Of a stretch of DNA of 47,385 nt, positions 30,001 through 36,000 are shown one piece after another. Within the stretch, counting starts at the first letter, position 1. Every line of letters begins with the position of its first letter. Made by a program: the position numbers. The stretch is taken from the NCBI GenBank assembly GCA_040389905.1, contig JAZJZK010000001.1, forward strand, positions 1 through 47,385, given 5' to 3'. Origin of the DNA: Gemmatimonadota bacterium (GTDB lineage: Bacteria; Gemmatimonadota; Gemmatimonadetes; Gemmatimonadales; Gemmatimonadaceae).

Positions 30001-33000
30001 CGACATGGATGACCCGCACGCGTTGGTCGACCGTCTCGCGCACCAGCACCTGACTCTTCGCGGGCACGCGGCCGCGCGCGGCACGATCCAGTTGCAGGCC
30101 CTGGCCCTGGTACTGGACGACATAGTCCTGGCCCACCACGCGCGTCTCCTCGAGACAGAAGACATCGTCGTCCCGCAGGCGCCGATCGCGCGCGCGATGA
30201 TGATCGACGGCACTCGCCGGCGCCACCGCGAAGCGCGCGTTGTGCGTCGGGAGATACGTCGCGCCGAGGTACGCATTCGCGGCCGTATCGTCGCTGATCC
30301 CCCGCAGCCGCATCTTCTTGATGAGCCGATCCTGCTGGGTCCCGTGACTCCGCTCCACCCGCCCCTTCGCCTGGGGACTCGCCGCGCCGATGATGGCGAT
30401 GTCGAGCTTCTGGCACATGCGACCGAAGGCCGTGTAGGGCGTGTCGCCGCGCGCCCGCTCGTTGACCGTCGGTTCCCGCTTGTAGACGTTCTTCCAATCG
30501 GTGTACAGCGCCCGCGGCACGCCGTGCGCGTCGATCCACGCCCGCAGCAGCGCGACGGCGGCCCACGTCGTTTCCTCCGCGCCGAACTGGAGCAGCGTCG
30601 TGCTGGTCGCGTCATCGACCAACGCCATCATGCAGCTGCGTTTGCCCGCGCGCTCCCCACGGCCTTCAAACCAATCGTGAAAGCTGCCGTCGAGCTGGAG
30701 CAGCTCGCCGAAGTGCGCTTTCCGCTCGCGACGCACCTTGGTGGGCCGGCTCCGCCGCACGCGACTCCAGAGGCCCGCGTCGCGCATCCAGTCGCGCAAC
30801 GTCGAGCGCGCCACCAGCATCGCGTGATCGATCCAGAGATGTTCCGCCACCAACGTCGGGCCGAAGCGCTGCCCGGGTCCCTTGGCCAGCGGGCCGCTGT
30901 AGTGCGCGCGAATCAAGGCGAGGACGGCGGCCCGCTCCGTCGCCGCGCACGCGCGATTCGACGGTCGGCCCACATTCCCATGCACCAGCGCCTTCGCGCC
31001 ATGGGCGCGATACCGGCGCCAGATGCGCTTCGCCTGTCGATAGCTCACACCCAACAACGGCACGGCATCCGTCAATGTCAGCGTGCCGGCCGCGACCCGC
31101 GCCAGCACCGATCCTCGGGAAATCTCTTTACGACTCATCGCTGTCCGCTCCACACCAACCTCCTCAGAGGCCAGTAGGTTAGGGGACAGTTCTATCCGCG
31201 TCCCGAGGGGACACTATCATCCGCCGACAACAGGGGGGCGAGAAACAGGGCGAGAAACAGGGGGCGAGAAACAGGGCGAGAAACAGGGGGCGAGAAACAG
31301 CCCGCTGGGCGCTACGCGCCCAGCTTGACTGCAAACAGCCACTGAGCTGCAGTTTTATCTGTCCAGCGAGCGTCAGCGAGCGGGCCGTCAAACGAGCGAA
31401 GCGAATGGGCTGTCAAGCGTGGCGCGAAGCGCCCGCGAGCCGTCAAGCGAGCGTGAGCGAGCGGGCATTCAGGTAGCAGCGAACGGGGCTGCTACTCGCC
31501 ACCAAGGCGCCGCGAAAGAACAACCAGTCTCCGCGCCAACTCGAGAATCCGCCCCACCGCCGCGCGTTGCCCCTCTGGCATTGGTTCGAGCGAAAGCAGC
31601 TGTGCCTCAGCCAGCAGGGCCGTGAGCGGATTGCTGAACGCGTGTTGAAGCGTCAAGGCAGCGCCGCCGAGGGCAAGCTGCGCGCGCATGCCGGTGAGTT
31701 CACGAAGTGCGGCGTCGATGTCCGCGTCGTAACCGCGCTCGACTCCGTGTGTCAGACGATACTCCCGTTCCGCGAGGAGCGCGCGGATGAGCCGGTCGGC
31801 ATCGTGATCGGGAAGCAGTTGCGCGATGAGTTCGCGCGCCAGGGACATCGAGCCCGCGGGTTCTGCAACGATCGCGGCACCGGACGTTCGCAGGCCGGGT
31901 CCGTTCGCGATCCGATCGAGGTAACTTTGTTCCATGGCTTCCTCTTCTCAACACGATGTGACTGCCGCGTTCGCGGCCGCCGTACAAGAGTATCGGCAGC
32001 GCGGCGATATCGCAGTACTAATTGACCGCATAAAGGATCTTTCCAACGCAACCGATCCAGAAACACTCGGGCGTGTTTCAGCGCCGTATCGCGATCTGCC
32101 CGAAGTGGTGATCCCGGTATATGAGCGTGTGGTGGCGGCGTCTCCGCACGACGCGCAGGCGATGGTAATCCTCGCGAACGCGTACTGGATCACGGGGCGC
32201 GGATCGGATGTTGTTGGCGCATTGGCCTCGCGTGCCATTTCTGTGGACGCGGGCAACCGGGGCGCGTGGCACCTGTGGGCGTTAAGTGAGTCCAATCCTC
32301 GTGAGCGTGTCGAACGGTGGACGCTCGTCACCACGCACTTTCCAACGGACCAGCTGGCGCGCGCGGCGCTGGCGGACAACGCCGCGAGCCTCGCCGGCGC
32401 TGAACACGACCCACTCGCGCTGGATCTCGCCGTTCGCACGTACGAGGGACTCTGGGCCGAGGCGAGCCGTGCGGAGGAGCGTCTCGCGCTCGAGGAGACG
32501 ATTGCGAAGTTGAAAGGCTGGAAACTCTAGGCGCTCTGTCCTCGCGCATCGCGCGCGCGTTTCGGCGCGATGGTGTCGACGGCGGCGATGAGCTCGCGCA
32601 ACTCGAACGGCTTCCGAATCGCGGGGCAGCGACAGGAGAGAATGAGCTTGTGTGCGCGCTCGGTGATGTCGCCCGTCATGAAGAGCGTCTGCGTGCGCAG
32701 GTGCGGATGTGTCGCTGCGGCGAGCTCGAACACCACGTCGCCGCGCGTATCTGGAATGCGCAAGTCGATCACCAGCACGTCGATATGCTCGGAGCGGAGC
32801 GTGGCGAGCGCGCTATCACCCGACTGGGCCGTCCGCGCGTCGTAGCCTGCACGCGTGAGCGCGATCGAGAGCGCTCGGCAGATTGCCGGCTCGTCATCCA
32901 CAACAAGAACCCGTATTAGATCCGACTGCATCCCGTAGTCTCACGCCTCGTGCATGGCCCGTCGTTCGGTACCAAGCGCCGCGGCGTCGCGAGCACTACG

Positions 33001-36000
33001 GTGGTGAACGATCGGTTGATTCTTCTTCCTCCGCATCGGGCTGGCGCAGTCGATTCGCCAGGAGCCGGACGAACATCTCTGGTGGAACGGAGCGCCGAAT
33101 CTCCTTGGGCGCGCGTCCCGTCCAGTCGTGCAACAAACTGCTCAGCGTATCGGGATCCGCATACCCGAGCTTTGCCGATATTTCCTTCAACCTGCTTCCG
33201 GGCGCGCGCAACAACGTGTAGGCCCTGAGTAACCGCGCGCAGATGATGAGATGCCGCGGTTGCAATCCTGCCGGCGTCATGTGCCGGTAAAGTGACCGGG
33301 GAGCCATTCCGGCCAGCCGTGCCAGCTCCTGACTGTTCTTCACGCGAGCGGGTGAGCGGAAGAGCTGCTCGATTGCCCGTGTCACAACCACTGGCAGCGC
33401 CCGCAGGGGAGTCGCCAGTTCCTGCAACATCAACTCCGCCATCGGGTGAGCCGGCACGCGCTCGATGAGGTCGAGGAAGCGGCGCGGTTCGTCGTCGAAG
33501 CGGTTGAGCACGACCTGATGAACGCCGAGTGGAGCCAGTCGCACGACGAGCCGGATGGCCATGGGTGCGAGCGTCGTGTAGACGATGACGGGGAGGGTAG
33601 GGTGTCCCGCGATCATCTCCACGATTTCGTCGGAGAACTGTCCCTCGCGCATGGCCGGATCGACGATCAGGAGATCCGCCGCCTCGGCCCTGAGGAGTGA
33701 GTGCAGCTCCGCCGGATCTGCGGCCGCATTGAGGACGTGCAAGTCCCCAAGCACAACGCGCAGATGCGTCAACAGGTTGCGTGGCAGCAAAACGACGACG
33801 TGCAATGACGGGCTGGAGAGGGGTTGGCGAGAATACCGGGTTTTTGGTCACAAAATGCCGGTTTACCCGCCGCCTCGCGAGCCTAGCCTTCCGGTGTGGT
33901 TCTAATCGAACCGTGTTTCCCACCACCGGAGTCTACAATGTCGCGTCGTCAAATCGCTTTTCTGGTTATTGCGCTGGCCTCCTTTGCGGTTTCTGCATGT
34001 GGGTCGTCGCCGACGGCGCCGAAGCGTGATGATACGATCGTAACGGTTGGTGGCACGGGCTGAAATCCTTTCGGCTAGCGCAGAACCACATGCGCAGTCT
34101 GTCGCGCGTGTATTTCTCGAACAATTTCTGCAAGCCCGTCTGGAATGGGTGACTCATCCTGCGCAACTCGGGGAATATCCGAAAGCCCTGCCAGTTGAGC
34201 TTCAGCGTGAAATACAAGCCGATTGTATCCGTATTGTTGCGCGAACTCGATGGCGTTTACGAGATTGCGGCGCGCGCCCTCGTTGTTCCCAAGTCGCGAG
34301 AGGCCCTCGCCTGCGTGGACGAGAAACTGCGCGCGGAGCAGCGGCGGCAGCGCCTGACCATCCAGGTAACGACGGTGACGTTCAAAGAGGGGCAATGATC
34401 CGTCGTCGGACGCGATTTCCATCAGGTTGATGATCGCGGCCCACCGTACGTACTGCTCCTGCGCCGTTACGGAGAGCAGAACATACGCGTCTCGTGCGGC
34501 GCTTCGGATTCCCAGCTTGTAAAATGCTCCGGCAATGTCCGCGAGCATTCGATCGCGCGCCCGATCGTCTCCGAGTTTGTCGAGCGCTTCATATCCGAGT
34601 TTAATTGCGTACTCATAGTCGCCCTTCAAGTGGGCAACGTCCGATCGCTCCTGGATGGCGGCGGCGCGAAACTGCTGGAGATCCGCGAGCTCGGCGCGCC
34701 GAATCGTGTCGTCGAGCATGATTTCGGCGCGCGGATAGTTGCCACGCGCAACGGAAACCTTCGCCTCAGCGATACGCGCGTGCAGCGATCCAACCAAGTC
34801 GCCGACGGCCTGCGCGATGATACCCGCCTGAGCTGCCACTTCTTCGGCAACGTCGAGTTCACCAAGCTGGCGACGGCAGATGCTCAGGCGAACGTGCGCG
34901 CGAATCGCATCGTCACTCTCCTGTGTTGGATGTGTGTACGCGATGACCGTTTCGTATACGTCGGCTGCGAGATGCCACTTGGCATCGGTGTCCAGGCTCT
35001 GCGCATACGCCATGAGTCGCGGCGCAACGACATGCATGTCGCCACAGCGCGCTGACGTCAGCGCATCGAGCGTACTCGTGAGAATCGCGCGAGCGGGCGT
35101 GCCCAGCGGCATCTCCTCAATTGCGGCTGCAACCGAGCGAATACCCCAGCCATCGGCAGCGACGGCCGCCGCACCTTCCTCAATCCACGTGTCGACGAGA
35201 CGCAGCACGACTAGCCCCGCGCTCACCGACCGCCACGACGGATCGTTCTCGTCGAGCGACGCCAGCTCGGAAAAAAACGGCATGTGCCGCAATGGCTGCG
35301 TTGGCTCGAACACTCAGCTTCTCTCCTCGACACGATGATTCAGCGGGCACTTCACTACGTGGGGAGTGTCGGCACTTTCATCAAAAGCATCAAGGGGGTT
35401 TTTCTGACGGAAACACCGGTGTTTTGTGACGTTATCCACATCGCACGTGACACCAAAATGATTGTTCGTCAGAAGAACATTCGGCGAATTCCGCGATTAG
35501 AAAACTCTAGGCGAGAAACACTTCGTTAGGTGGTAACGAAAATCTCCTCGGCGTCGACGTGAGCTCGTACCAACAGCAACTGATGCACATCGCTCGGCCT
35601 CTTGCGCTCACCGCGCGACCGCAAGGCCCGCGTCACTATCGGCTGAGCGAAGCAGTCTGGCGACGACCATTGTGACGAATTGCTCTGGCGGAAGGGCGTC
35701 GCGCGCCGCTGTCGGCGTGAGCCCTGTCCAGTCACGCATGAGATCGCTGAGTGTGCGCGGATCTGCGAATTGGAGCCTGGCGTTGATCTGCTTCATCTGG
35801 CTGCCCGGCATGCGCACGAGTGAGTAGGCCCGCACGACGTGAGAGCAGTCAATGAGATGTCGTGGTTGAAGTCCAGCGGCGGCCATGCGCCGATACATCG
35901 ACCGGCGTGTCATGCCCGCCAACTCGGCCAACTCTGCGCCATGCTTCACACGCGTCGGGGACCGAAACATAAGCTCGATGGCGCGGACGAGTCTCACGGG

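What a model noticed while it worked through the whole genome (the two positions that open the first line are those of the whole stretch)
32996..35313. An uncalled 41-aa lipopeptide gene between a TPR protein and an AraC-type regulator: an RRNPP-like peptide module in Gem [...]
An uncalled gene at C1:33938-34063 (+) encodes a 41-aa peptide with a lipoprotein signal and a short variable tail; it is divergent from a degenerate-receiver AraC regulator (g00027) and convergent with a cytoplasmic all-helical TPR protein (g00028). The trio is conserved across Gemmatimonadales, tails vary and often end in a two-Cys loop, and a second copy lies at C14:203151-205476. The layout and the Rap-like fold suggest a peptide signalling system of RRNPP style in a diderm phylum.
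Evidence so far: Call 178: the peptide is found in 33 of 36 metagenome loci with enough flank (11 of 47 too short), AraC gene in 32 of 36; same pattern hits 3 of 400 control windows. Calls 167, 168, 171: TPR in 11 of 24 order genomes, peptide seen in 8 relative loci of both families. Model pLDDT 91.6; structural matches include phage Rap with peptide (Z 21.2, rmsd 4.4, 299 aligned), Rap pLS20 (19.9), RapH, NprR, PlcR. Second copy: calls 179, 182. PMC10075063 (abstract, passages) treats RRNPP as Firmicutes systems; search 175.
(Added by a program. Inside this text positions count along the whole contig: contig position 1 is position 1 of the stretch shown here. "Call 12" and the like, gene names such as g00115 and contig names such as C1 are that model's own, and its searches are not shown. 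The text may have been shortened before it was handed on; [...] marks where a part breaks off. The agent that wrote the report below was given it as the finding of a first reader that could run no searches.)

Follow-up and report, generated by a model that had tools for sequence, protein, structure and literature searches.

The report
Peptide signalling cassette in Gemmatimonadota
An overlooked 41-residue lipoprotein gene, a repeat-protein receptor predicted to grip its last seven residues, and a regulator with binding sites in front of both genes recur together across a soil bacterial phylum, and look like a peptide communication circuit of a type described so far only in Gram-positive bacteria.

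Summary
Confirmed and extended. The 41-aa lipoprotein ORF (33938-34063) is coding (dN/dS 0.30). It lies tail-to-tail with the TPR gene in 191 of 196 overlapping relative loci with enough flank (0 of 495 control gene ends). Further evidence: (1) a 21/22-bp direct repeat overlapping the -35 precedes both the peptide and TPR genes, the genome's two best sites; (2) tandem 7-9-residue repeats in relatives define the mature unit, here probably VTVGGTG; (3) a predicted complex puts residues 31-41 in the TPR groove (0.83, best control 0.02); (4) groove columns covary with the peptide core but not with its signal; (5) an OppA gene abuts the TPR gene in two clades. Best reading (about 0.6): a Rap-Phr/ComA-like circuit with a lipoprotein precursor. 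Processing, import, the TPR's protein target and the output are untested. Descent from Rap is not shown: eukaryotic LGN matches better. Eight literature searches found no description. The scan has noted this cassette before in other genomes (eight unchecked notes).

The parts
32527..32931 (-). Stand-alone canonical receiver protein (DD, Asp, Thr and KP retained); fourth gene of the ancestral cassette and an alternative target of the TPR
   Evidence: Pfam Response_reg E 6.5e-16; starts within 250 nt downstream of AraC in 93 of 119 loci with flank
32996..33805 (-). AraC-family regulator with an N-terminal pseudo-receiver domain (Asp49 kept; acidic pair and Lys absent)
   Evidence: HTH_18 E 1.4e-13; model pLDDT 93.3; receiver fold Z 16.1, rmsd 2.2, 116 aligned to NtrX; column conservation
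33825..33866 (+). Operator 1: two direct repeats 21 bp apart (consensus TGnCACAAAA-n6-TTT); the proximal one overlaps the peptide gene's putative -35
   Evidence: 21-bp period best in 111 of 151 loci vs 7 of 151 shuffled; motif; top site in the genome, score 34.2 with a matrix built without the window
33862..33889 (+). Putative promoter of the peptide gene (-35 at 33862-33867, 16-nt spacer, -10 at 33884-33889)
   Evidence: conserved columns in the 151-locus motif; coordinates; not picked up by the generic sigma-70 scan
33938..34063 (+). Uncalled 41-aa lipo-propeptide gene (Sec/SPII-type signal 1-20, Cys21, PTAP linker, C-terminal core)
   Evidence: SD-like motif in 143 of 151 loci
34040..34060 (+). 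Codons 35-41: predicted mature 7-mer VTVGGTG (8-mer if Ile34 is included)
   Evidence: register with tandem 7-9-mer repeats in relatives; best model contacts at residues 35-38; covariation
34075..35313 (-). Cytoplasmic all-helical TPR protein, candidate peptide receptor; groove anchors R141, R248, D252, N289 (numbered from codon 8 of this ORF)
   Evidence: model pLDDT 96.6; fold search; complex; anchor conservation 99/88/90/70%
35388..35431 (-). Operator 2: the same direct repeat (22-bp period) overlapping a TTGA -35 upstream of the TPR gene
   Evidence: score 27.9, second-best distinct site in the genome; found upstream of TPR in 74 of 143 loci, 0 in control windows inside TPR
35608..37676 (-). 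Intact paralogous TPR-AraC pair with abutting genes, no peptide and no operator; all four groove anchors kept (candidate orphan receptor)
38020..40082 (-). Broken third TPR-AraC pair without peptide (frame changes near 38380, 39410 and 39795)

Best explanation
A peptide signalling circuit with Rap-Phr/ComA logic, built on a lipoprotein precursor. The 41-aa propeptide is exported by Sec and lipidated at Cys21 (inferred from the lipobox). A protease frees the C-terminal 7-8-mer (inferred). It is taken up by an Opp-type ABC transporter (inferred) and binds the concave groove of the cytoplasmic TPR protein (supported by the model and by covariation; not measured). The TPR controls the adjacent AraC regulator, most likely as an anti-activator gripping its phosphorylation-incompetent receiver domain (inferred; no direct evidence). 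The AraC activates the peptide gene and the TPR gene through direct repeats overlapping their -35 elements (sites shown by conservation; binding inferred). This gives positive feedback through the peptide and negative feedback through the TPR. Distinct cores insulate paralogous circuits. Peptide-less TPR-AraC pairs are orphan listeners or decaying copies.
For: Linkage 191 of 196, control 0 of 495. The three genes stay together in three different gene orders in distant lineages, and in 11 of 11 loci of the C14-type subfamily. Tandem units: HTIGSGN x3, DFVNPHV x3, DYVNPLG x5, and 8-9-residue repeats in 4 of the 146 tails, like duplicated Phr pheromones (PMC11343458). Complex score 0.83 vs best control 0.02 (this mark was reached by 116 of 157 solved and 2 of 215 mismatched pairs; runs agree in at least 62% of contacts; partner pLDDT at least 49); only residues 31-41 touch. 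Groove columns covary with the core (p 2.6e-5; entropy-matched 3.7e-4) but not with signal or linker (p 0.53). On 65 branch-disjoint pairs from an AraC tree, partial r is 0.45 vs a null of -0.09 +/- 0.14, reached by 0 of 1000. The four anchors are kept at 3-4 of 4 in 150 of 151 trio TPRs but only 0-2 of 4 in the 7 distant peptide-less TPRs. Paired Cys (66 pairs, 0 singles, 9 state changes on the tree) suggests an oxidising compartment. SBP_bac_5 lies directly upstream of TPR in 26 of 151 loci. The genome has LspA and a full Opp operon.
Against: No RNA or protein evidence. No TPR-AraC contact signal: inter-protein covariation was noise and no fusion was found. The model may pass by likeness to solved TPR-peptide complexes, and the partner's pLDDT is only 49-54. 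Five distant trio TPRs also score only 2 of 4 anchors, which weakens the anchor contrast. OppA adjacency comes from only two clades. No operator outside the cassette rises above shuffled-matrix controls in this 85%-complete genome, so an output is missing. The core is no more variable than the signal across the family (identity 0.32 vs 0.33). A lipid anchor and an outer membrane are barriers to diffusion between cells.
Confidence: 0.6

Rival explanations
1. Cell-autonomous sensor. The TPR binds the same tail, but either on the precursor before export or after release and re-uptake within the same cell's periplasm. The circuit then reports export or lipidation capacity, periplasmic proteolysis or outer-membrane leakiness rather than cell density. 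A TPR chaperone co-activating an AraC protein is known from SicA-InvF (PMC10977090, passages).
For: Every binding and operator result fits equally. The precursor is lipid-anchored. The only clear operator targets are the cassette's own genes. Neighbours include envelope genes: a polysaccharide deacetylase directly upstream in 56 of 151 loci, and PBP1A.
Against: 115 distinct 7-mer cores in 151 loci and receptor-core covariation suggest private codes. Paired Cys and OppA adjacency argue against pre-export binding, though not against periplasmic self-sensing.
Confidence: 0.2
2. The peptide-bound TPR acts on the stand-alone canonical receiver (as Rap does on Spo0F), and the AraC is only the circuit's transcriptional driver.
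For: The receiver follows AraC in 93 of 119 loci and keeps all phosphorylation residues. RapH-Spo0F is among the structural matches (Z 20.6, rmsd 5.6, 304 aligned).
Against: 26 of 119 trios lack the receiver but keep AraC. Duplicated pairs in the window carry TPR and AraC only.
Confidence: 0.1
3. The lipopeptide is itself the output, a small membrane-active or kin-recognition lipoprotein (entericidin-like; recalled), and the TPR sequesters it as an immunity protein or chaperone.
For: The peptide promoter is the strongest operator in the genome. There are weak NCBIfam hits to small lipoproteins, all below cut-off and limited mainly to the signal region.
Against: Tails are Gly/Ser-rich, short and not amphipathic. 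Tandem 7-mer repeats and a cytoplasmic partner separated by a membrane fit a processed ligand better.
Confidence: 0.07

Closest known systems
Rap-Phr systems of Bacillus, its plasmids and phages (RRNPP/RRNPPA family), acting on ComA or Spo0F
   Same: HTH-less cytoplasmic TPR protein of about 400 aa next to a small Sec-exported propeptide gene. C-terminal short unit with intragenic duplications, orphan receptors, Opp import and a receiver-fold target (PMC9765709 passages; PMC11343458 section 8). Fold match to pLS20 Rap Z 21.3 (rmsd 7.5, 321 aligned) and phi105 Rap with peptide Z 20.2 (rmsd 4.8, 293 aligned).
   Different: Diderm host. The precursor has a lipobox in every locus detected (the search pattern required one), whereas Sec/SPII is predicted for only 211 of 2,734 RRNPPA propeptides (PMC9765709 section 9). 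Convergent gene layout, with the peptide gene antisense between TPR and AraC. Disulfide-loop variants. The partner is a dedicated pseudo-receiver-AraC protein. No specific sequence kinship with Rap was shown.
SicA-InvF (type III secretion TPR chaperone as co-activator of an AraC/XylS regulator)
   Same: A TPR protein modulates an AraC-family activator (PMC10977090 passages).
   Different: SicA has three TPRs and binds secretion substrates. Here there is a 400-aa TPR, a dedicated micro-lipoprotein ligand and a receiver-fold N-domain.
LGN/Pins TPR domain (eukaryotic) and MalT domain III
   Same: Best structural and profile matches: LGN Z 24.2, rmsd 4.2, 289 aligned; MalT Z 19.8. LGN binds extended peptides in its groove.
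   Different: Generic TPR-superhelix likeness only; no shared gene context or ligand.
Enterococcus sex pheromones cut from lipoprotein precursors (PrgX/TraA; recalled)
   Same: A lipoprotein gene is the source of a 7-8-residue signal for a cytoplasmic receptor.
   Different: There the signal comes from the signal peptide of an unlinked large lipoprotein. Here the model and covariation point to the C-terminal tail, not the signal.

Membership tests
RRNPP (five-point signature of PMC10075063) | Propeptide of 10-100 aa | tested here: met
   41 aa; mature tails of 18-40 aa in 151 loci
RRNPP (five-point signature of PMC10075063) | Sec-dependent signal on the propeptide | tested here: met
   n-region, h-region and lipobox by my own pattern; SignalP not available; type is SPII, the minority type in RRNPPA
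RRNPP (five-point signature of PMC10075063) | Receptor of 250-500 aa with TPRs | tested here: met
   412 aa; TPR_MalT E 1.2e-7, below Pfam cut-off; TPR superhelix in model and fold search
RRNPP (five-point signature of PMC10075063) | Receptor and propeptide genes adjacent (-60 to 400 bp) | tested here: met
   11 nt apart in the window; median offset 28 nt in 151 loci
RRNPP / Rap-Phr | Mature peptide binds the TPR groove | tested here: inconclusive
   Supported by model (0.83 vs 0.02) and covariation; not measured
RRNPP / Rap-Phr | Extracellular maturation and re-import by Opp; density-dependent response | not testable with these tools
   Only circumstantial: Opp operon in the genome; OppA next to TPR in 26 of 151 loci
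RRNPP / Rap-Phr | Common descent with Rap, NprR or PlcR | tested here: inconclusive
   Rap E 1.1e-4 and NprR E 6e-5 by profile, but LGN E 1.5e-14; Z 21.3 vs 24.2; no joint tree was possible
Rap subfamily | Conserved Asn anchoring the peptide backbone (N226 in Rap3T, PMC11343458) | tested here: inconclusive
   N289 (70% conserved, Glu in 22%) and D252 (90%) contact the peptide in the model; positional equivalence to the Rap Asn not established
Rap subfamily | N-terminal three-helix bundle that binds or dephosphorylates a response regulator | tested here: inconclusive
   Rap chains align from model residue 20-21, and H3, R31 and D34 are about 95% conserved, but no target contact was detected
Canonical phosphorylatable response regulator (the AraC protein) | Acidic pair, phospho-Asp, Thr/Ser and Lys of the receiver active site | tested here: not met
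   Receiver fold met; D49 96% and T/S77 80% kept; no acidic pair after strand 1 and no Lys after strand 5
AraC/XylS class II activation site | Tandem direct repeats about two helical turns apart overlapping the -35 (recalled) | tested here: met
   DNA binding itself untested

The most novel reading that the evidence does not exclude
Gemmatimonadota run a phylum-wide, independently evolved peptide quorum-sensing language in a two-membrane cell. Membrane-tethered micro-lipoproteins are proteolysed to 7-8-residue linear or disulfide-looped pheromones that cross the envelope, enter through Opp, and release a kinase-independent pseudo-receiver-AraC activator from a TPR anti-activator. There are more than a hundred codes, multi-copy precursors and eavesdropping orphan receptors.
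Probability: 0.4. Interest if true: 0.9.

Novelty: new variant of a known kind. Interest (0 to 1): 0.78.

Why it matters
Cytoplasmic peptide-receptor signalling is described as a Bacillota trait (PMC10075063; PMC9765709). A version in a Gram-negative soil phylum would break that division, and it raises the question of how a peptide signal passes two membranes; a lipid-tethered precursor is a plausible new answer. The family profile matches 160 of 301 sampled phylum genomes and 923 clusters at 50% identity with E up to 1e-30, while the peptide gene is routinely uncalled. The predicted 7-mer, receptor pocket and operator make it directly testable with synthetic peptide, two purified proteins and a reporter.

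Tried and rejected
RNA evidence: no RNA holder listed; uninformative, so no reads were laid. TPR-AraC covariation (151 pairs, effective number about 74) gave only clade-level noise. Fusion search: no longer AraC homologue among 8,000 candidates (weak evidence), and none among 9 long TPR proteins. Regulon: apart from the two cassette sites, hits in the genome (24 or lower) fall within shuffled-matrix controls (25 or lower). A 21-bp pattern in 5 relatives gave 7 sites: 5 at peptide promoters, 1 at a TPR promoter and 1 before a large lipoprotein gene. A 22-bp pattern found nothing in 5 genomes, including one where the matrix does find such a site, so the pattern was too strict. The generic promoter and terminator scan was at chance level and found no terminator between the convergent genes. 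No orphan peptide gene in the genome beyond C1 and C14. Atlas: no usable hit for the peptide; TPR neighbours are unnamed Gemmatimonadota clusters. First neighbour clustering was swamped by shadow ORFs and was redone with a codon model. The first tree did not finish; FastTree was used. Rejected: shadow ORF or chance; signal-peptide-derived pheromone; a mobile or defence island, since the trio sits at a syntenic core site between rho and the deacetylase/PBP1A genes.
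Full report
Observation. The uncalled ORF 33938-34063 encodes a 41-aa protein with a lipoprotein signal and Cys21. It is divergent from an AraC-family gene (32996-33805) and ends 11 nt from the stop of a 412-aa TPR gene (34075-35313). It is coding: over 20 same-register relatives dN/dS is 0.30 in frame, against 1.4 and 2.2 in shifted frames and 1.35 antisense. 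Differences from the window fall 475/250/132 on codon positions 3/1/2, and 143 of 151 loci have an SD-like motif. Within that group the core evolves fastest (0.57; signal 0.32; linker 0.13). Across the whole family the core is no less conserved than the signal (0.32 vs 0.33).

Distribution. The TPR matches 109 of 201 order genomes (0 of 27 in one family), and its profile matches 160 of 301 phylum genomes at E up to 1e-10; weak hits there may be other TPRs. Named records are Gemmatimonadota or unclassified. Among loci with at least 450 nt downstream, the peptide was found in 67 of 68, 59 of 61 and 65 of 67, and AraC in 194 of 196; 29 of 225 loci were dropped as too short. The 70 order loci were the 30 best plus 40 that I picked from the list. 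One miss (L124) has the peptide, hidden by a TPR frameshift. The sets overlap and reduce to 151 trios; one of these (L010) comes from an unpublished genome, G090, and no claim depends on it. The same pattern hit 0 of 495 other long-ORF ends. Of 19 distant loci chosen by me, 12 had a peptide and 7 had none. The order varies: AraC-TPR-peptide in L264 and L266, peptide-AraC-TPR-AraC in L275 and L276. The C14 copy belongs to a distant subfamily in which 11 of 11 other loci are trios. A canonical single-domain receiver follows AraC in 93 of 119 loci. The window is the syntenic site between rho and the deacetylase/PBP1A genes. It has an insertion of about 8.5 kb that holds two peptide-less TPR-AraC pairs, one intact and one broken.

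The mature unit. Relatives carry tandem repeats at the C-terminus: HTIGSGN three times, DFVNPHV three times, DYVNPLG five times, and 8-9-residue repeats in 4 of 146 tails of the window's family. In register, the window's unit is residues 35-41, VTVGGTG (590 Da), or 34-41. Duplicated pheromones are a known feature of Phr propeptides (PMC11343458; abstract and section 8 read). Extra cysteines come only in pairs (66 tails with at least two, 0 with one, 80 with none), with 9 changes on a FastTree tree. That points to a disulfide and so to an oxidising compartment (inference). Residue +2 is never Asp in 146 tails, which in E. coli would send it to the outer membrane (rule recalled; untested for this phylum).

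The receptor. The model (pLDDT 96.6) is an all-helical TPR superhelix with no signal peptide. The best matches are LGN (Z 24.2), Pins (23.9), pLS20 Rap (21.3), RapH (20.6), phi105 Rap with peptide (20.2), MalT (19.8) and NprR (18.6). Foldseek and the profile search also rank LGN first. The fold is therefore generic and does not show descent from Rap. The complex job (TPR 1-385 with peptide 12-41, both as alignments) scored 0.83, best control 0.02. That mark was reached by 116 of 157 solved and 2 of 215 mismatched pairs; runs agree in at least 62% of contacts; partner pLDDT is at least 49. Only peptide residues 31-41 touch, although nine signal residues were offered. The pass may partly reflect likeness to solved TPR-peptide complexes. 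The 35 groove residues mix anchors (R141 99%, D252 90%, R248 88%, N289 70%) with hypervariable positions. Independently of the model's score, these columns covary with the peptide core more than other TPR columns do (p 2.6e-5; entropy-matched 3.7e-4), and not with signal or linker (p 0.53). Top pairs include 218-36 and 285-37, both predicted contacts, though only 4 of the top 25 pairs are groove residues (1.4 expected). On 65 of 75 branch-disjoint pairs taken from an AraC tree (10 dropped as too close or too far), groove change tracks core change with partial r 0.45; the rate-matched null is -0.09 +/- 0.14, reached by 0 of 1000. Signal plus linker gives -0.34, and shifted column sets give 0.04-0.23. 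The seven distant peptide-less TPRs keep 0-2 of 4 anchors against 3-4 in 150 of 151 trios, but five distant trio TPRs also keep only 2. The window's intact orphan keeps all 4, like eavesdropping Raps (PMC9765709, passages).

The regulator and its operator. The AraC N-domain has a receiver fold (Z 16.1) with Asp49 but without the acidic pair or the Lys, so it is unlikely to be phosphorylated (inference). Upstream of the peptide gene a 21-bp direct repeat is the best period in 111 of 151 loci, against 7 of 151 shuffled. The proximal copy overlaps a putative -35, and a TAnnnT follows 16 nt later. This is the layout of AraC/XylS activation sites (recalled). The same repeat, mostly at 22 bp, precedes the TPR gene in 74 of 143 loci and in none of the control windows. 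In this genome these two sites rank first and second (34.2, 27.9); nothing else exceeds shuffled-matrix controls. In 10 loci of one clade a third site lies about 1.85 kb upstream, between OppA and a divergent gene. Some paralogous clades and the C14 copy do not fit this matrix. One regulator driving both ligand and receptor is the wiring of ComA with rapC-phrC (recalled). TPR and AraC abut when the peptide is absent, and no terminator was found between the convergent genes. The peptide gene may therefore sit antisense inside a TPR-AraC-receiver transcript (inference).

Import. The genome has two LspA genes and three SBP_bac_5 genes with permeases, one of them in a full Opp operon on C24. An SBP_bac_5 gene lies directly upstream of the TPR gene in 26 of 151 loci, 43% identical to that C24 OppA, but these loci form only two clades.

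Mechanism and odds. Shown: gene, linkage, repeats, operator conservation, folds. Supported: the core binds the groove. Inferred: lipidation, cleavage, import, TPR control of AraC and its sign. Missing: any output gene, a protease, and expression data (no RNA holder listed). I give 0.6 to the exported-peptide circuit, 0.2 to a cell-autonomous envelope or export sensor, 0.1 to the stand-alone receiver as target, and 0.07 to the lipopeptide as effector.

Comparison and novelty. The cassette meets the five computational RRNPP criteria (PMC10075063; abstract, section 15, first part of section 3 and passages read), which were defined for Firmicutes. Sec/SPII propeptides are a minority there (211 of 2,734; PMC9765709 section 9). 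A term search of PMC12700828 found no mention of gram-negative, lipoprotein or MalT (nothing else read). A TPR co-activator of an AraC protein has a precedent in SicA-InvF (PMC10977090, passages). Searches returned no papers; in the listings of searches no title or abstract opening describes such a system in Gemmatimonadota or another diderm. The library lacks most subscription papers, and I did not open supplements; RRNPP_detector tables could hold related entries. It works like Rap-Phr; membership by descent is undecided. Earlier unchecked notes of this scan describe the same cassette in other genomes. I recorded my reading before seeing them and do not count them as evidence. Verdict: a new variant of a known kind, interest 0.78.

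Noticed in passing
window 35608-43900: An insertion of about 8.5 kb between the trio and the deacetylase/PBP1A genes. It holds two peptide-less TPR-AraC pairs and three divergent ORFs: a BNR-repeat protein, a 470-aa lipoprotein with no Pfam hit, and a 178-aa protein with an apparent signal peptide. These may be targets of the orphan regulators.
   Followed up: partly
L083, L087, L089, L090, L093, L095, L096, L098, L102, L103, L171 (downstream of AraC); L228:1-1400: Large lipoproteins or exported proteins of no known family recur near the cassette in 11 loci, and one lies behind an operator-like site in G142. These are candidate output genes.
   Followed up: partly
L132:2753-3043, L135:2754-3077, L206:2683-2967: A conserved protein of about 100-108 aa without a Pfam hit lies directly behind a third strong operator with a TTGAC -35. 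In sister loci (L204, L208) a CHASE3-PAS hybrid histidine kinase takes that place.
   Followed up: partly
protein P0172: A 644-aa record joining an ECF-type sigma factor to this TPR family; a single record, possibly a read-through artefact.
   Followed up: no
proteins P0231, P0236, P0240, P0252, P0259: Five TPR homologues carry an extra N-terminal Cys/His-rich segment of about 50 aa, possibly a metal-binding domain; no Pfam hit in the two scanned.
   Followed up: no
L211, L212, L215, L219, L221, L225, about 2-4.9 kb upstream of TPR: In one clade a second AraC gene, a PqqD-family protein and an ABC exporter lie divergent from the OppA-TPR unit; possibly a peptide-modification (RiPP) cluster under the circuit's control.
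   Followed up: no
G000 C24:21853-22752 and C12:209384-210229: Two further pseudo-receiver AraC relatives without an adjacent peptide gene; the C24 one lies about 10 kb from the Opp operon.
   Followed up: partly
window 29795-31153: An ISNCY-family transposase inserted between rho and the small HisKA gene.
   Followed up: no
L031-L050: In the second family the TPR gene is back-to-back with a pilin/GspH-like gene in 15 of 20 loci, and MerR and LemA genes follow the receiver.
   Followed up: no
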